A stretch of DNA of 40,482 nt, from sequence record MZ234011.1. One strand, written 5' to 3'. Shown in pieces: positions 21,531 through 26,502 of the stretch. Within the stretch, counting starts at the first letter, position 1. The number at the start of each line of letters is the position of its first letter. The stretch comes from Escherichia phage vB_EcoP-22664UKE3-2. Below the pieces are notes generated by a model. It had not been told where the DNA came from. It was given only the letters and a program-made list of their open reading frames with translations, and searched no databases. The position numbers were made by a program, and so were the translations under genes.

Positions 21531-21743
21531 ATGATTAAACTTATTGAATTTCTGGGTCGTCTGGTTGTGCGTGGCTATTCTCGTGCTGCGAGTGTGGAAC
21601 GAAAAGTCGCATCTGCTGCGGCTAAAGGTGCGGAAGCGGCTGCTGCGGAAGCGGATAGTCTGCGCATCAAGTCTCTGGACGCTGGCCTACGTGCCAAAGG
21701 TCTTGACAAGAAAGCCGAGCAACTGAAAGGCTTCTTCAGCTAA
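21531..21743 (+). CDS. Hypothetical protein (70 aa), Ala/Lys-rich
   Basis: ORF with RBS AAGGAGA upstream. Confidence 0.5.
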   Translation: MIKLIEFLGRLVVRGYSRAASVERKVASAAAKGAEAAAAEADSLRIKSLDAGLRAKGLDKKAEQLKGFFS

Positions 21744-21761
21744 ACTATCACCTTAGGGATG
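21739..21761 (+). promoter_or_regulatory. Degenerate promoter-like sequence (CTAAACTATCACCTTAGGGATG)
   Basis: Upstream half matches the promoter core but -4/-3 are changed (CACCTTAGGG vs CACTATAGGG); activity doubtful. Confidence 0.3.
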
Positions 21762-21806
21762 AGACCACGGGTCTTGTCCCTTTGTTCGCATTTGAGATTA
21801 AGAAAT

Positions 21807-21885
21807 GTCTCCATAGCTCAAACGGTAGAGCGGCGGGTCGTGATGGCCTATTGCGATTAGGGTTCGAATCCCCGTGGAGACGCCA
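21807..21885 (+). tRNA. tRNA-like element (degenerate; possible pseudo-tRNA or tRNA-like structure)
   Basis: Perfect 7-bp acceptor stem GTCTCCA/TGGAGAC, D-arm GCTC-AAACGGTA-GAGC, canonical T-loop TTCGAAT in GGTTCGAATCC, discriminator G then CCA; I could not fold a clean anticodon stem and the middle is about 3 nt long. Confidence 0.35.
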
Positions 21886-21896
21886 CTAAGGAGTGA

Positions 21897-23776
<1,880 letters not shown>

Positions 23777-23840: not shown

Positions 23841-26012
23841 ATGTTTGACCTTAAGAGTATCTGGGGTTCTGACATCGAGACCAACGGTCTCCTTGATACA
23901 GTCTCCCAGTTTCACTGTGGGGTCCTGATTAACGCCGAGTCGAATGAGACCCTTAAGTATGGGGTAGCTCCGATGGTCGGTATCGTCGGCGGCTTCAAAG
24001 AGTATGTTCATAAAGTGGAAGAGATTGCCGCATCACCTGATGGTATGCTGGTATTCCATAACGGTATCAACTATGACGTCCCGGCTATAGACAAGCTGAA
24101 GCGTTTGTACTTTGGGAAACGCTTTAACTTCCCGAAACATAAGATGATTGATACCTTGGTGCTGGGACGCTTGATGTATCCAAACATTAAGTTCTCAGAC
24201 ATGGGCGCGGTGAAAGCTGGTCGTCTGCCACCTAAGATGATGGGACGCCAGTCTCTTGAGGCTTGGGGCTATCGTCTCGGTGAGATGAAAGGTGAGTACA
24301 AACACGATTACGTTGCCAAGTGCAAGGCTGAAGGTATCGAATATAAGGCTGGGGACGAATGGTTGTTCCCGTCTCAGGAGATGCTGGACTATAACGTTCA
24401 AGACGTTGTGGTCACACTGGCGTTGTTCAAGAAGTTCCTGACTGACAAGTATTACTTCCAGTCTGAACAGTTCGCTTTCGACCAGATTTATGCGTTGCGT
24501 CTGGAACATGATGCTGCGTGGACCTGTGCGAAGATGGAGCGTAATGGCTATCCGATGAACACCGAGATGGTCGAAGGCTTATATCGTGAACTCACTGTCA
24601 AACGAGCAGAGTTGCTGGACAAGCTGCGTTCGACTTTCGGTAGCTGGTACGCACCAAAGGGAGGCAAGGAGTTCTTCAGGCATCCACGGACAGGTAAGGA
24701 CCTTCCGAAGTATCCGAGGGTCGTGTATCCTAAGGTCGGTGGCATCTTTAAGAAGCCGAAGAACAAAGCTCAACGCTTAGGTCTTGAACCTTGTGAACGC
24801 GATACGCGAGACACGATGGAAGGAGCACCATTCACGCCAATCACTTACGTTGAGTTTAATCCGGGAAGCGGAGACCACTTAGCGAAAGTCCTGATGGAGC
24901 GTGGCTGGGAGCCTGTTGACTTCACTGACACCGGGAAACCTGTAGTCGATGACGAGACGTTGGAACACGTTAAGTTACCAGACGCAGAGGCTCAGGCTTG
25001 CGTAGAGCTGGTCCGTGAGTATCTGGTAGTCCAGAAGCGCATCGGTCAGGCGGCTGAAGGTAAGAACGCATGGTTGAAACTTGTAGGTCCAGACGGACGT
25101 ATGCACGGCTCAATAAACCCATGCGGGGCAGTAACCGGACGTGCGACCCATAGTTCACCAAACATGGCTCAGGTCCCGGCTAACGGTGCTCCATATGGTG
25201 AGACTTGCCGTGGTGCTTTCGGTGCAGCGTGGAACAAGAAGGACGGTAAGCCAGACCCTTGGATTCAAGTTGGTGTGGATGCCTCAGGTCTTGAGCTTCG
25301 TTGTCTTGGGAACAGAGCGGCTCCGTTTGATGGTGGTGCATATGCGAAGACTGTGGTAGAAGGTGACATCCACTGGGCCAACGCAGTAAACGCTGGGTTA
25401 GCACCTAACGTCCAACGCGATAAGTCTAACCACGACCATGAGGCTTTCCGTAACAACGCTAAGACGTTCATCTACGCGTTCCTGTATGGTGCAGGGGCCG
25501 CTAAGATTGGACTGATAGTAGGCGGTGGTAAGAAGGAAGGTTCAGCGCTCATGAAGAAATTCATTGAGGGTACACCAGCTATCAAGGACCTCAGGGAAGC
25601 TGTAAGTAATACGTTAATCTCAGACTCTAAGTGGGTGGACGGAGAGAACATCGTTAAATGGAAACGCCGTTGGTTGCGTGGACTCGATGGTCGCCGTATA
25701 CACATACGGTCTCCACACTCAGCACTGAACGCATTACTTCAAGGTGATGGTGCGGTAGTATGTAAGCACTGGATTGTTGAGACTGAACGTATGCTCGAAG
25801 AGGCCGGGTATGTCCACGGCTGGGAAGGAGACTTTGCGTACATGGCATGGGTCCACGACGAATTGCAGATTGCAGCTCGGAACATGGAGATTGCCGAAGA
25901 TATTCGCAGGATTGCTCAACTTGCTATGCGTAAGGTGGGTGAGTTCTATAACTTTAAATGTGTCCTTGATACTGAAGGTAAGCTTGGACCAACTTGGAAG
26001 GAGTGTCACTAA
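23841..26012 (+). CDS. DNA polymerase (T7 gp5-like, family A)
   Basis: 723 aa; exonuclease motif DIETNG, FHNG..YDVPA, polymerase motifs (DASGLELRC, KTFIYAFLYGAG, WVHDE), C-terminus DTEGKLGPTWKECH, all parallel to T7 DNAP. Confidence 0.97.
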   Translation: MFDLKSIWGSDIETNGLLDTVSQFHCGVLINAESNETLKYGVAPMVGIVGGFKEYVHKVEEIAASPDGMLVFHNGINYDVPAIDKLKRLYFGKRFNFPKHKMIDTLVLGRLMYPNIKFSDMGAVKAGRLPPKMMGRQSLEAWGYRLGEMKGEYKHDYVAKCKAEGIEYKAGDEWLFPSQEMLDYNVQDVVVTLALFKKFLTDKYYFQSEQFAFDQIYALRLEHDAAWTCAKMERNGYPMNTEMVEGLYRELTVKRAELLDKLRSTFGSWYAPKGGKEFFRHPRTGKDLPKYPRVVYPKVGGIFKKPKNKAQRLGLEPCERDTRDTMEGAPFTPITYVEFNPGSGDHLAKVLMERGWEPVDFTDTGKPVVDDETLEHVKLPDAEAQACVELVREYLVVQKRIGQAAEGKNAWLKLVGPDGRMHGSINPCGAVTGRATHSSPNMAQVPANGAPYGETCRGAFGAAWNKKDGKPDPWIQVGVDASGLELRCLGNRAAPFDGGAYAKTVVEGDIHWANAVNAGLAPNVQRDKSNHDHEAFRNNAKTFIYAFLYGAGAAKIGLIVGGGKKEGSALMKKFIEGTPAIKDLREAVSNTLISDSKWVDGENIVKWKRRWLRGLDGRRIHIRSPHSALNALLQGDGAVVCKHWIVETERMLEEAGYVHGWEGDFAYMAWVHDELQIAARNMEIAEDIRRIAQLAMRKVGEFYNFKCVLDTEGKLGPTWKECH

Positions 26013-26296
26013 TGGCTATTACTAAACGTATTCGTGTGAGTTTTGATCTGAAGATGGTTGCTAACTCAAAGGAAGAAGATACCATGTGTCGCCAACTGGC
26101 TGATATGACTAAAGCCTACGCTGAGGGTGAGAAGCTGGATGGTCTTCAGTTGGCTCTGGTCAAAACCGCAATCGAGTCAGGCCCTGAGTCTGCCCTTGAA
26201 ATTGCCCTCAAGAAGACCATCAAGGAGAAGCTGGTAGACGACTTTGGTTATGGCCAGTTCGGAGTATCTAACCTGCGATTCGAGGTCAAGCAATGA
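26012..26296 (+). CDS. gp5.5-like protein
   Basis: MAITKRIRVSFDL...GLQLALVKTAIESGPES resembles T7 gp5.5 as I recall it; ATG overlaps the polymerase stop (TAATG). Confidence 0.55.
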   Translation: MAITKRIRVSFDLKMVANSKEEDTMCRQLADMTKAYAEGEKLDGLQLALVKTAIESGPESALEIALKKTIKEKLVDDFGYGQFGVSNLRFEVKQ

Positions 26297-26502
26297 GTGA
26301 ATACTTACGGGTCCTAGCGGCCCTTAAGTCCTGCCCGAAGACCTTCCAGTCCAACTATGTGCGCAACAACGCTGCACTTGTGGCTGAGGCTGCGAGTCGT
26401 GGACATCTAAGCTGCCTGTCTATGGATGGGCGTAACAACGGTGCGTGGGAGATTACCGCTGCTGGCACCAAGTTCCTGAACCAACACGGAGGATGCCTGT
26501 GA
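26293..26502 (+). CDS. gp5.7-like protein
   Basis: MSEYLRVLAALKSCPKTFQSNYVRNNAALVAEAASRGHLSCLS...GAWEITAAGTKFL is nearly identical to T7 gp5.7 as I recall it. Confidence 0.8.
   Translation: MSEYLRVLAALKSCPKTFQSNYVRNNAALVAEAASRGHLSCLSMDGRNNGAWEITAAGTKFLNQHGGCL

What the first reader, a model, noticed from the sequence alone, without database searches (positions are those of the whole stretch)
21807..21885. tRNA-like element with perfect acceptor stem, D-arm, T-loop and CCA but no canonical anticodon arm
tRNAs are not a usual feature of T7-like genomes. This 79-nt segment has a perfect 7-bp acceptor stem, a GCTC/GAGC D-stem, the invariant GGTTCGAATCC T-arm motif and an encoded discriminator plus CCA, yet I cannot fold a clean anticodon stem. 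It may be a decaying captured host tRNA, a non-canonical tRNA, or a tRNA-like structure co-opted for RNA processing or priming; it sits just upstream of the primase-helicase gene behind a degenerate promoter.
Basis: seen in the sequence. Interest (0 to 1): 0.65.

Follow-up and report, generated by a model that had tools for sequence, protein, structure and literature searches.

The report
Conserved non-decoding tRNA-like RNA cassette
A minority of T7-like (Kayfunavirus) phages carry an 88-bp insert just upstream of their primase-helicase gene that encodes a tRNA-shaped RNA; its tRNA body is strictly conserved but its anticodon arm is a freely drifting hairpin, so it is probably kept for its tRNA shape and not for reading codons.

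Summary
Window 21807-21885(+) is called a tRNA by ARAGORN (Thr-CGU, 79 nt) and by Rfam RF00005 (36.7 bits, gathering score 29). Acceptor stem, D arm, T loop and GCCA are canonical. The anticodon arm is not.

Ten distinct natural variants and RNAalifold support a 5-7 bp bulged stem (29-33/39-43, plus 27-28/47-48) capped by a 5-nt loop. They contradict ARAGORN's arm, the tRNAscan GTG register and the single-sequence MFE helix.

The element is an 88-bp cassette flanked by a TAAG repeat. It sits in the gene 4 leader, which is a hot spot that holds HNH genes or small ORFs in other relatives. I found 34 GenBank Kayfunavirus records with it, 1 of 43 IMG/VR relatives, and no close E. coli tRNA (best 55/79).

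Excluding pO91, SH5 and Kc166A, the tRNA body has 0/62 variable sites. The arm has 6/17, the adjacent leader 12/63 and gene 4 third positions 81/195. So it is not a decaying relic, and the variable "anticodon" argues against decoding.

Best reading: a selected, non-decoding tRNA mimic, probably excised by RNase P and acting through its tRNA body. Expression, processing and function are untested.

The parts
21744..21759 (+). Variant phage-RNAP promoter-like site, ACTATCACCTTAGGGA (consensus ACTATCACTATAGGGA). Transcription would start at about G21756.
   Evidence: 7 matches in the window against 0.32 expected; this copy has CTTA in place of TATA. It is conserved in carriers and non-carriers. 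Activity was not tested.
21756..21780 (+). 5' leader hairpin GGGAUGAGACC-ACG-GGUCUUGUCCC. It resembles the 5' stem-loop of T7 phi10 transcripts (from memory).
   Evidence: 11 pairs in both the MFE and the centroid fold. Present with compensating variants in relatives with and without the element.
21803..21890 (+). 88-bp insertion relative to 'empty' relatives: AAAT + 79-nt element + C + TAAG. It is flanked by a TAAG direct repeat (21799-21802 and 21887-21890).
   Evidence: SH4, ST56 and KKP_3263 read GATTAAGGAGTGACCAATG; carriers read GATTAAG|AAAT..CCAC|TAAGGAGTGACCAATG; 18 of 23 IMG/VR relatives are empty here.
21807..21885 (+). tRNA-like RNA gene (79 nt).
   Evidence: ARAGORN; Rfam RF00005 36.7 bits; cloverleaf 90.9% paired over 10 variants, 0/500 shuffles as good; RNAalifold consensus.
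21807..21813 (+). Acceptor stem 5' strand. It pairs with 21875-21881. The predicted RNase P cut lies between U21806 and G21807.
   Evidence: Seven Watson-Crick pairs. pO91 has a compensatory U2-A74 to C2-G74 change, and Kc166A shifts both strands by one pair. U(-1) and A(-2) match the bacterial RNase P preferences described in PMC4919922.
21816..21831 (+). D arm: stem GCUC/GAGC, loop AAACGGUA with G18 G19.
   Evidence: Stem invariant in all 10 variants. The only loop change is AC to GA in pO91.
21833..21854 (+). Non-canonical arm replacing the anticodon arm. Stem is element positions 29-33/39-43 (G.U, G-C, G-C, U.G, C-G), plus outer pairs 27-48 and 28-47 across the bulge A44 U45 U46. The 5-nt loop GUGAU lies at 21840-21844.
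   Evidence: No natural variant breaks a pair. 29-43 goes GU to AU; 32-40 goes UG to UA (3 sequences) or CG (1). RNAalifold finds the same arm. Kc166A keeps the outer pairs with a 2-nt bulge. Rival arms are broken by variants. 6 of 17 sites are variable, a rate like synonymous sites.
21858..21874 (+). T arm: stem UAGGG/CCCCG (U.G, A.C mismatch, 3 G-C pairs), loop UUCGAAU.
   Evidence: Kc166A has G55-C65 changed to A-U and repairs A53.C67 to A-U.
21875..21885 (+). Acceptor stem 3' strand (21875-21881), discriminator G (21882) and encoded CCA (21883-21885). Together these form an RCCA motif.
   Evidence: GCCA is conserved in all close copies. It reads AACCU in Kc166A.
21887..21902 (+). Shine-Dalgarno block TAAGGAGTGACCAATG of gene 4. 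It starts 2 nt after the CCA and is the repeated junction used by all cassettes at this spot.
   Evidence: It is unpaired in the centroid fold of the leader.
21900..23600 (+). Gene 4 primase-helicase (566 aa), downstream neighbour on the same transcript.
   Evidence: ORF list; GenBank annotation of relatives.

Best explanation
The element is an accessory 88-bp cassette encoding a tRNA-shaped RNA that is no longer a decoder.

Shown: it has a canonical tRNA body (acceptor stem, D arm, T loop, GCCA), and this body is under strong purifying selection. The anticodon arm has been replaced by a bulged hairpin with a 5-nt loop whose sequence drifts at about the synonymous rate, with only its pairing preserved. 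The cassette sits in the gene 4 leader, 48 nt downstream of a phage-type promoter start and its 5' hairpin. It is present or absent among otherwise similar phages.

Inferred: phage RNA polymerase transcribes it as part of the gene 4 leader. Host RNase P cuts between U21806 and G21807; all sequence determinants are present (U-1, A-2, G1-C72, a 12-bp acceptor/T stack, the D/T elbow, RCCA). The 3' end is trimmed to the encoded CCA, releasing a stable RNA of about 79 nt and separating it from the gene 4 mRNA.

Most likely role (inference, moderate to low certainty): the released RNA acts in trans as a tRNA mimic through its body. It would occupy a tRNA-binding factor, either a host tRNA-directed defence or processing enzyme, or the phage's own Gp5.5-like protein, whose T7 homologue binds tRNA. 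It would not read codons.
For: - Detection as a tRNA.
- Structure: cloverleaf plus the 28-33/39-44 arm is 90.9% paired, with 0/500 shuffles as good. RNAalifold finds the same arm independently. ARAGORN's arm, the MFE arm and the GTG register are contradicted by variants.
- Selection: (17 close carriers plus the window; Kc166A excluded), body pi=0.007, arm 0.057, leader 0.063, gene 4 third positions 0.126. Excluding SH5 and pO91 as well, body has 0/62 variable sites, arm 6/17 (p=4e-5), leader 12/63 (p=3e-4), third positions 81/195 (p=1e-12). 22 records are 79/79 identical while their flanks are only 87-96% identical.
- Not host-derived.
- Not decoding: the positions ARAGORN or tRNAscan would read as the anticodon (33-36) vary between near-identical phages. 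ACG is the rarest Thr codon.
- Cassette and hot spot.
- Independent fold within the leader, with the SD left free.
- RNase P determinants: PMC4919922.
- Gp5.5-like protein in the same genome. T7 gp5.5 binding tRNA: cited via PMC8501957.
Against: - No expression, processing or phenotype data are available.
- Only 10 distinct variants exist, and most differ at one position.
- Five of the six double-sided 'covariations' come from one register shift in a single divergent copy (Kc166A).
- The cassette moves by recombination, because carriers and non-carriers share leader haplotypes. Part of the identity across genomes could therefore reflect recent spread. The body-versus-arm contrast within the element is robust to this; the element-versus-flank contrast is less so.
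- The body's private-variant rate is not lower than the all-sites rate of leader plus gene 4 (P=0.31).
- The single-sequence fold is unremarkable: z=-1.2, and the MFE is not the cloverleaf.
- The T stem carries an A.C mismatch.
- About 80% of relatives lack the element, so it is dispensable.
- No partner for a trans-acting role is identified. PARIS AriB recognition features (UAAU, U16) are absent.
Confidence: 0.5

Rival explanations
1. Cis-acting punctuation only. The tRNA shape serves as an RNase P cleavage signal that cuts the gene 4 mRNA away from upstream transcripts, or gives it a structured, protected 5' end. The released or attached RNA has no role of its own.
For: The element lies inside the gene 4 leader and ends 1 nt before the SD block, with the SD left intact and unpaired. 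The RNase P determinants are complete. The constrained-body, drifting-arm pattern is what a processing signal needs. Precedents exist: MALAT1/mascRNA, P1/P7 C4 RNA, RNase P cleavage of operon mRNAs (PMC4919922).
Against: The position may simply reflect the recombination hot spot, since unrelated protein cassettes use the same junction. Relatives express gene 4 from the same leader without it. A pure cleavage signal should tolerate more change in the D loop, variable region and T loop than the near-zero variation seen (0/62 sites excluding pO91, SH5 and Kc166A; all four body variants are in pO91). The leader already has a conserved 5' hairpin.
Confidence: 0.2
2. Neutral passenger. A tRNA gene captured from another phage or bacterium was crippled in its anticodon arm and now spreads with the cassette traffic at this hot spot (possibly helped by neighbouring HNH endonucleases) without benefit to the phage.
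For: tRNAscan-based GenBank annotations call it a pseudogene or 'tRNA-OTHER'. It occurs in only 34 GenBank records and 1 of 23 IMG/VR Kayfunavirus-like relatives. HNH or ORF cassettes lie next to it in SH5 and Kc166A. Recombination shuffles it. Recent spread could explain the identity across genomes.
Against: Within the same 79 nt the arm has 6/17 variable sites and the body 0/62 (p=4e-5; excluding pO91, SH5 and Kc166A), which recent spread cannot explain. The substitutions that do occur in stems are compensatory or pair-improving (pO91 2-74; Kc166A 55-65 and 53-67; arm 29-43 and 32-40). The divergent Kosakonia copy (55/78 identical over the 79-nt element; 84.6% over the 64-nt BLAST match) still keeps the cloverleaf.
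Confidence: 0.12
3. Genuine decoding tRNA with an unusual anticodon arm, for example ARAGORN's Thr(CGU), a His(GUG)-like tRNA, or a 9-nt-loop tRNA. It would supplement the host pool or replace a host tRNA destroyed by an anticodon nuclease, as T5 tRNAs do against PARIS and Retron-Eco7.
For: ARAGORN assigns Thr(CGU) with U33 and a purine at 37. The loop UCGUGAU resembles the E. coli tRNA-His loop UUGUGAU. The CCA is encoded and the body is canonical. Phage tRNAs with altered anticodon stem-loops are a known counter-defence (PMC12409363, PMC11464382). Cellular tRNAs with the same acceptor stem are Arg or Lys, and Lys is a PARIS target.
Against: Under ARAGORN's register the anticodon would be CGU, CAU or CUU, and U33 becomes C, in near-identical phages. 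Under the GTG register it would be GUG, AUG, GUU or UUU. Both registers have unpaired stem positions and are further broken by variants. The variants support C33-G39 and U32-G40 pairing, which leaves only 5 loop nucleotides. ACG is the least used Thr codon. From established E. coli identity rules (my own knowledge), G73 with C3-G70, no long variable arm and no G-1 fits none of the synthetases that ignore the anticodon. The AriB target motif is absent.
Confidence: 0.08
4. Replication primer. The 3' end of the tRNA-like RNA primes T7-type DNA polymerase, supplementing the primase encoded immediately downstream, as host tRNAs can do in T7 primase mutants.
For: Adjacent to the primase-helicase gene. 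Zhu et al. 2012 (cited in PMC8501957) reported tRNA priming in T7, masked by gp5.5. A Gp5.5-like gene is present.
Against: From my recollection of that paper (the paper itself is not held), priming relies on the 3' ACCA shared with primase products. This element ends in GCCA, and the Kosakonia copy in AACCU. Adjacency is explained by the cassette hot spot.
Confidence: 0.03

Closest known systems
mascRNA / MEN-beta tRNA-like small RNAs cut from MALAT1 and NEAT1 (eukaryotes)
   Same: A tRNA-shaped module embedded in a longer transcript. Its acceptor/T/D body is conserved and recognised by RNase P (PMC4919922). From my own knowledge, mascRNA's anticodon arm is small and not used for decoding.
   Different: Eukaryotic nuclear lncRNA context. 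There the cut creates the 3' end of the upstream RNA and the CCA is added afterwards. Here the CCA is encoded, the module lies in a phage mRNA leader, and processing is only inferred.
Phage-encoded tRNAs that counter tRNA-cleaving defences (T5 tRNA-Lys/Thr/Asn against PARIS; T5 tRNA-Tyr against Retron-Eco7)
   Same: A phage-borne tRNA-family gene with changes concentrated in the anticodon stem-loop. It is accessory, and T7-like phages are PARIS-sensitive (PMC12409363, PMC11464382, bioRxiv 10.1101/2023.03.15.532788).
   Different: Those are canonical, chargeable decoders that replace a cleaved host tRNA. This RNA has no stable anticodon and a 5-nt loop, and it lacks the UAAU/U16 features AriB reads.
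RNase P-processed phage regulatory RNAs (P1/P7 C4 antisense RNA; from memory also P4 CI RNA and phi80 M3 RNA)
   Same: Small phage RNAs matured by host RNase P through a tRNA-like acceptor structure with a CCA (reference list of PMC4919922).
   Different: Those mimic only the acceptor/T minihelix and act by base pairing with targets. This element is a complete cloverleaf with D arm and elbow, and no target complementarity was identified.
Canonical cellular tRNA-Arg and tRNA-Lys with the same acceptor stem, and E. coli tRNA-His
   Same: Acceptor stem GUCUCC-N/GGAGAC, UAGCUCA and UUCGAAUC are shared with 87 bacterial and archaeal tRNAs typed Arg (71) or Lys (16). The loop UCGUGAU resembles the tRNA-His loop UUGUGAU.
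   Different: All of those have a 5-bp anticodon stem, a 7-nt loop and about 76 nt in total. This element has 3 extra nucleotides between the D and T arms and a different arm. Identity to any of the 17 E. coli K-12 tRNAs compared is at most 55/79.
tufB-type tRNA-mRNA co-transcripts (thrU-tyrU-glyT-thrT-tufB)
   Same: tRNA genes lie directly upstream of a protein-coding gene in the same orientation (gene order seen). That they form one operon whose tRNAs are excised is my own knowledge.
   Different: Those are functional decoding tRNAs of the host. Here there is a single non-decoding tRNA-like unit in a phage.

Membership tests
tRNA (Rfam RF00005; canonical decoding tRNA) | Scores at or above the family's curated threshold | tested here: met
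   36.7 bits against a gathering score of 29. This is low for a tRNA (typical scores are higher, from memory), because the anticodon arm contributes nothing.
tRNA (Rfam RF00005; canonical decoding tRNA) | 7-bp acceptor stem, discriminator and 3' CCA | tested here: met
   Seven Watson-Crick pairs plus G-CCA. 98.6% of cells are paired over 10 variants, and pO91 has a compensatory change.
tRNA (Rfam RF00005; canonical decoding tRNA) | D arm and T arm with the conserved elbow nucleotides (U8, A14, G18 G19, A21, T54 Psi55 C56, A58) | tested here: met
   All are present in the sequence. The D stem is invariant. The T stem has 3 G-C pairs plus U.G plus an A.C mismatch.
tRNA (Rfam RF00005; canonical decoding tRNA) | 5-bp anticodon stem closing a 7-nt loop with U33 and a purine at 37 | tested here: not met
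   Rfam leaves 21 nt unaligned here. ARAGORN's register is 70% paired and broken by variants. The GTG register is 38% paired. The supported arm has a 5-nt loop.
tRNA (Rfam RF00005; canonical decoding tRNA) | Anticodon conserved among orthologues | tested here: not met
   Positions 34 and 36 (inside either proposed anticodon), and also 32 and 38, vary among phages whose element body is otherwise identical.
tRNA (Rfam RF00005; canonical decoding tRNA) | Aminoacylation and use on the ribosome | not testable with these tools
   Needs charging assays or tRNA-seq of infected cells.
tRNA pseudogene / decaying captured host tRNA | Evolves neutrally over its whole length | tested here: not met
   Body 0/62 variable sites against arm 6/17, leader 12/63 and third positions 81/195 (pO91, SH5 and Kc166A excluded). 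With only Kc166A excluded, pi is 0.007 for the body and 0.057-0.126 for the comparators.
tRNA pseudogene / decaying captured host tRNA | Recognisable close match to a host tRNA gene | tested here: not met
   No BLAST match in 5,426 E. coli genomes at E<=10. The best of 17 K-12 tRNAs is hisR at 55/79. Only 17 of the host's tRNA species were compared.
RNase P-processed tRNA-like elements (mascRNA type; phage C4 RNA type) | Substrate determinants: acceptor/T coaxial stack, G1-C72, 3' RCCA, U(-1) | tested here: met
   7+5 bp stack, G1-C75, GCCA, leader ...AAGAAAU|G. Determinants as listed in PMC4919922.
RNase P-processed tRNA-like elements (mascRNA type; phage C4 RNA type) | Actual cleavage by RNase P and accumulation of the small RNA | not testable with these tools
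   Needs northern blot, 5'-end mapping or an in vitro assay.
Phage counter-defence tRNAs (T5 type) | Canonical decoder of the isoacceptor that the defence nuclease destroys | tested here: not met
   No stable anticodon. The AriB-recognised UAAU and U16 are absent: the loop is GUGAU and position 16 is A.
tmRNA and viral 3' tRNA-like structures | tmRNA has a tag ORF and pseudoknots. TYMV-type elements have a pseudoknotted acceptor at a genome 3' end. | tested here: not met
   ARAGORN reports no tmRNA. No Rfam family other than tRNA reaches its gathering score; the next-best hits are 13.5-20.3 bits against gathering scores of 45-68. The element is internal to a dsDNA phage transcript.

The most novel reading that the evidence does not exclude
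T7-like phages carry a mobile RNA-only counter-defence or host-takeover cassette. It would be a highly transcribed, non-decoding tRNA mimic that titrates a tRNA-directed factor through its acceptor/elbow/CCA body. Candidates are a host immune effector acting on tRNA bodies or 3' ends, or the phage's own Gp5.5/H-NS/tRNA complex. The useless anticodon arm would be free to drift.
Probability: 0.25. Interest if true: 0.75.

Novelty: new variant of a known kind. Interest (0 to 1): 0.55.

Why it matters
Phage tRNA genes are normally explained by codon supply or, more recently, as replacements for host tRNAs cut by immune nucleases. This element does not fit either explanation. Selection keeps the tRNA body and ignores the part that reads codons. 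It also travels as an 88-bp RNA-only cassette in a hot spot otherwise used by homing endonucleases and small accessory proteins.

If the RNA is made and processed as predicted, it would be a bacterial-virus counterpart of tRNA-like small RNAs such as mascRNA. It might also be a new class of RNA-based host-manipulation or anti-defence factor in one of the best-studied phage groups.

There is a practical point too. Public records label it inconsistently as tRNA-Thr, tRNA-Pseudo(GTG) or tRNA-OTHER, or leave it unannotated. The Thr assignment is not supported.

The system is easy to test. Natural isogenic-like pairs with and without the cassette already exist, for example SH4 and SH5.

Tried and rejected
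- **Generic viral-contig scan.** A tRNA-shaped pattern returned 120 unrelated tRNAs and no relative. A specific motif found only one IMG/VR copy. The single metagenome scan added only two copies.
- **BLAST outward from the divergent Kosakonia copy.** It returned the same 34 records, so no deeper homologues were available for covariation analysis.
- **Single-sequence folding.** It is uninformative (z=-1.2), and its 10-bp alternative helix 30-39/43-52 is broken by variants at 8 of 10 pairs.
- **ARAGORN's Thr(CGU) arm and the tRNAscan GTG register.** Both rejected on pair counts.
- **Diversifying selection on the loop.** Not supported: the arm's private-variant rate equals the third-position rate (P=0.24), although it exceeds the all-sites rate (P=0.006). 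My first version of this test included SH5, whose HNH insertion misaligns gene 4, so I redid it.
- **PARIS-specific decoy.** The AriB determinants UAAU and U16 are absent.
- **Codon-supply explanation.** ACG is the rarest Thr codon.
- **Prophage attachment site.** I considered and dropped this. Relatives' annotations around the locus show no integrase, and from my own knowledge these phages are strictly lytic. I did not screen the whole window for an integrase. The element is also a full-length tRNA-like unit, not a tRNA 3' fragment.
- **Sigma-70 promoter or intrinsic terminator near the element.** None found.
- **Literature.** Searches found no description of this element; Kayfunavirus genome papers only give tRNA counts. 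Zhu et al. 2012 could not be read.
Full report
**1. What is there**

The window is a Kayfunavirus genome (T7-like, Studiervirinae). A 1-kb query around the finding matches Escherichia phages vB_EcoP-101120B1-2, PM129 and others at 99.9%.

At 21807-21885 on the + strand, ARAGORN calls a 79-nt tRNA-Thr(cgt). Rfam's tRNA model scores 36.7 bits against a gathering score of 29, with E=2.9e-4 for the window. Even with relaxed thresholds no other Rfam family comes near its gathering score.

- a perfect 7-bp acceptor stem, GUCUCCA/UGGAGAC;
- U8 and A9;
- a GCUC/GAGC D stem with loop AAACGGUA (G18 G19 present);
- a UUCGAAU T loop;
- discriminator G and an encoded CCA.

Between the D and T arms there are 25 nt where a class I tRNA has about 22. 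Rfam leaves that block unaligned (21 nt against 17 in the model).

**2. Context**

The phage promoter consensus in this window is ACTATCACTATAGG(G/A)A, with six copies. The site at 21744-21759 is a variant, ACTATCACCTTAGGGA (7 matches against 0.32 expected). Its transcript would begin with an 11-bp hairpin at 21756-21780.

The element follows after a 26-nt spacer. Its CCA is followed by one C and then the Shine-Dalgarno block TAAGGAGTGACCAATG of gene 4, the 566-aa primase-helicase at 21900-23600. When the leader is folded as a whole, the element forms its own domain and the SD stays unpaired in the centroid structure. No sigma-70 promoter or intrinsic terminator is predicted nearby.

**3. It is a discrete cassette in a hot spot**

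Relatives without the element (SH4, ST56, KKP_3263) read ...GATTAAGGAGTGACCAATG(gene 4). Carriers read GATTAAG|AAAT-[79 nt]-C|TAAGGAGTGACCAATG. This is an 88-bp insertion (21803-21890) flanked by a TAAG repeat.

The same junction holds other cargo in other relatives:
- small ORFs in Ro103C3lw and ST17, with the whole SD/ATG block duplicated;
- an HNH endonuclease gene after the element in SH5, and a 179-aa ORF after it in Kc166A.

Contents of this junction in the 23 Kayfunavirus-like IMG/VR loci:

| Content | Loci |
|---|---|
| Empty | 18 |
| 59-aa ORF | 2 |
| 116-aa HNH-like ORF (judged by eye, no domain search) | 1 |
| 36-aa ORF with a similar N-terminus | 1 |
| The element | 1 |

None of 20 more distant T7-like loci has any tRNA near gene 4. 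In GenBank phages the element occurs in 34 records, all Kayfunavirus or Kayfunavirus-like, on Escherichia, Enterobacter, Salmonella, Klebsiella, Citrobacter and Kosakonia hosts. That compares with 183 records that align over at least 80% of the 1-kb region.

Carriers and non-carriers share leader haplotypes; for example SH4 and SH5 have identical hairpins. The cassette is therefore gained or lost by recombination.

Public annotation is inconsistent: tRNA-Thr, tRNA-Pseudo(GTG), tRNA-OTHER or nothing.

**4. Origin**

There is no BLAST match in 5,426 complete E. coli genomes even at E<=10. That search is insensitive for short matches in so large a database, so I also compared the element locally with 17 E. 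coli K-12 tRNAs.
- The best full-length match is tRNA-His at 55/79. Its anticodon loop UUGUGAU resembles the element's UCGUGAU, which probably explains tRNAscan's 'Pseudo(GTG)' call.
- No host tRNA matches the body better than 38/58.
- tRNA-Glu matches the 3' part best, at 24/31.

Across 185,579 species genomes, 87 tRNAs share the acceptor stem, UAGCUCA and the T loop. ARAGORN types all of them as canonical tRNA-Arg (71) or tRNA-Lys (16). The element is tRNA-derived, but it is not a recent capture from the host, and its ancestral identity is ambiguous.

**5. Structure of the odd arm**

I gathered 10 distinct variants: 8 from GenBank, 2 from metagenomes, including the divergent Kosakonia phage copy.

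| Candidate | Cells paired | Effect of natural variants |
|---|---|---|
| Cloverleaf backbone plus arm 28-33/39-44 | 90.9% (0/500 column shuffles as good; slid controls 34-54%) | none breaks a pair |
| ARAGORN's Thr(CGU) arm, 26-30/38-42 | 70% | 29-39 never pairs; 28-40 and 30-38 broken |
| tRNAscan GTG register, 27-31/39-43 | 38% | not applicable |
| Single-sequence MFE helix, 30-39/43-52 | 86% | disrupted at 8 of 10 pairs |

Caveat: five of the six pairs with changes on both sides are acceptor pairs in Kc166A. They stem from one event, a one-pair register shift of both strands. The independent compensatory changes are:
- pO91: U2-A74 to C-G;
- Kc166A: G55-C65 to A-U;
- Kc166A: repair of the A53.C67 mismatch to A-U.

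In the supported arm, G29.U43 becomes A-U, U32.G40 becomes U-A (three sequences) or C-G (one), and C28.A44 becomes U-A.

RNAalifold, which was not given my structure, returns the same stem 29-33/39-43 with a 5-nt loop. It adds G27-C48 and C28-G47 across a 3-nt bulge. Kc166A keeps these outer pairs with a 2-nt bulge.

The 'anticodon arm' is therefore a bulged hairpin of up to 7 bp capped by the pentaloop G34 U35 G36 A37 U38. This geometry cannot present an anticodon in the normal way. Thermodynamically the cloverleaf (-23.5 kcal/mol when constrained) is not the MFE (-28.0), and the single-sequence z-score is only -1.2. The structural case rests on comparative data, not on folding energy.

**6. 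Selection**

I aligned 19 carriers: the window, 15 GenBank loci and 3 IMG/VR or metagenome loci. Kc166A was excluded from the statistics.

Nucleotide diversity:

| Partition | pi |
|---|---|
| Upstream CDS | 0.141 |
| Adjacent 63-nt leader | 0.063 |
| Gene 4 third positions | 0.126 |
| Element arm (positions 28-44) | 0.057 |
| Element body (positions 1-27 and 45-79) | 0.007 |

All four variable body sites are in one phage, pO91, and two of them form a compensatory pair.

Variable sites excluding pO91 and SH5 (SH5's HNH insertion misaligns gene 4):

| Partition | Variable sites | Fisher p against body |
|---|---|---|
| Body | 0/62 | not applicable |
| Arm | 6/17 | 4e-5 |
| Leader | 12/63 | 3e-4 |
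| Gene 4 third positions | 81/195 | 1e-12 |

Private-variant rates:
- Arm: 0.35 per site. Indistinguishable from third positions (0.25; P=0.24), above the all-sites rate (0.094; P=0.006).
- Body: 0.065 per site. Below third positions (P=7e-4), but not below the all-sites rate (P=0.31).

In short, the body is at least as constrained as coding sequence. The arm drifts about as fast as synonymous sites, and only its pairing is preserved. I see no convincing evidence of diversifying selection on the loop, although positions 34, 36, 38 and 40 are hit more than once.

Because the cassette recombines, identity across diverged genomes could partly reflect recent spread. The body-versus-arm contrast lies within one 79-nt unit and is immune to that objection.

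**7. What it is not**

- **Not a decaying pseudogene** (section 6).
- **Not a conserved decoder.** Under ARAGORN's register the anticodon would be CGU, CAU or CUU in near-identical phages, and U33 is C in one. Under the GTG register it would be GUG, AUG, GUU or UUU.
- **Not explained by codon supply.** ACG, read by Thr(CGU), is the rarest Thr codon in the phage: 15% of Thr codons, 8.6 per 1000.
- **Probably not charged.** By established E. coli identity rules (my own knowledge, not tested), G73 with C3-G70, no long variable arm and no G-1 matches none of the synthetases that ignore the anticodon.
- **Not specifically linked to PARIS.** AriB reads UAAU near the cleavage site and U16 (PMC12409363). 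The element has neither.

**8. How it most likely works**

Shown: a tRNA-shaped cassette whose body is under selection, whose arm drifts, and which lies in a promoter-proximal leader.

Inferred from established RNase P biology (PMC4919922): U(-1), A(-2), G1-C72, a 12-bp acceptor/T stack, an intact D/T elbow and a 3' RCCA make it a near-ideal E. coli RNase P substrate. The encoded CCA would allow normal 3' trimming. The expected outcome is an RNA of about 79 nt released from the gene 4 leader.

Strict conservation extends beyond the minihelix that cleavage alone needs. It covers the D loop, the variable region and the T loop. The cassette also shares its site with unrelated cargo. For both reasons I favour a trans-acting tRNA mimic over a purely cis-acting cleavage signal, at roughly 0.5 against 0.2.

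Possible partners are speculative. One group is host tRNA-directed defence or processing enzymes that read the body or the CCA end. Another is the phage's own Gp5.5-like protein (26009-26296; phrog_1452, E=3.6e-25). Its T7 homologue forms a complex with H-NS and tRNA (Zhu et al. 2012, cited in PMC8501957; the paper itself is not held). The priming idea from that work is disfavoured because the element ends in GCCA and not ACCA.

**9. Comparison and novelty**

By the Rfam threshold the element belongs to the tRNA family. It fails two defining features of a decoding tRNA: anticodon-arm geometry and a conserved anticodon.

Functionally it most resembles tRNA-like small RNAs such as mascRNA, and RNase P-matured phage RNAs such as the P1/P7 C4 RNA. 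It differs from T5-type counter-defence tRNAs, which are canonical decoders.

I found no paper describing it. Kayfunavirus genome papers only report tRNA counts, and a search for phage tRNA-like anti-defence RNAs found nothing relevant. I rate it a new variant of a known kind.

Interest is moderate at 0.55. The conservation pattern is clean and the system is very tractable, but function is unproven, the family is narrow, and the element is dispensable for most relatives.

Noticed in passing
window 21799-21902; L140, L141, L003, L001, L237, L248, L258, L259: The gene 4 leader is a cassette hot spot. Alternative inserts are small ORFs of 31-35 aa, a 59-aa ORF, an HNH-like endonuclease ORF and a possible remnant of it, and a 179-aa ORF. 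Most of the ORF cassettes (Ro103C3lw, ST17, L237, L259) are bounded by the repeated block TAAGGAGTGACC(A/G)ATG, which suggests exchange by recombination at this shared ribosome-binding sequence.
   Followed up: partly
L251, L252, L254, L256 (IMG/VR) and L140 (Ro103C3lw), just upstream of gene 4: At the position where this window has ACTATCACCTTAGGGA, these otherwise similar phages have a T3-like motif, AACACTCACTAAAGGGA. This implies a different RNA polymerase promoter specificity within close relatives.
   Followed up: no
window 21805-21816: The insertion creates a 3-codon mini-ORF, ATG TCT CCA TAG, overlapping the 5' end of the element. It is preceded only by the truncated SD remnant TAAGAA. 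Probably incidental.
   Followed up: no
window, whole genome (28 long + strand ORFs): Lysine codons are 76% AAG (46.9 per 1000). From memory, E. coli decodes both Lys codons with a single tRNA-Lys(UUU) species. Cellular tRNAs sharing the element's acceptor stem include tRNA-Lys(CUU). No variant of the element has a convincing CUU anticodon loop, however.
   Followed up: partly
L143 (LM33_P1), L146 (HC12), probably L149 (LNA5; unannotated, inferred from alignment length); window 21531-21743: These carriers lack the 70-aa ORF (phrog_1950, unknown function) that lies between the amidase gene and the leader in the window. The region upstream of the leader is therefore also variable.
   Followed up: no
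L135 (metagenome contig CYGL01000127.1), element T stem: This copy has CCC in place of CCCC on the 3' side of the T stem. That would remove the mismatched C67, or it may be a homopolymer assembly error.
   Followed up: no
window 21744-21780: The variant promoter plus 5' hairpin upstream of gene 4 is conserved in carriers and non-carriers, with compensating changes in the hairpin. From memory it recalls the T7 phi3.8/R3.8 arrangement (a promoter followed immediately by an RNase III site). Whether the hairpin is an RNase III site was not examined.
   Followed up: no
window 26009-26296: Gp5.5-like H-NS inhibitor gene (phrog_1452, E=3.6e-25). The next ORF (26293-26502) matches the C-terminal half of a fused family, phrog_17900.
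   Followed up: partly
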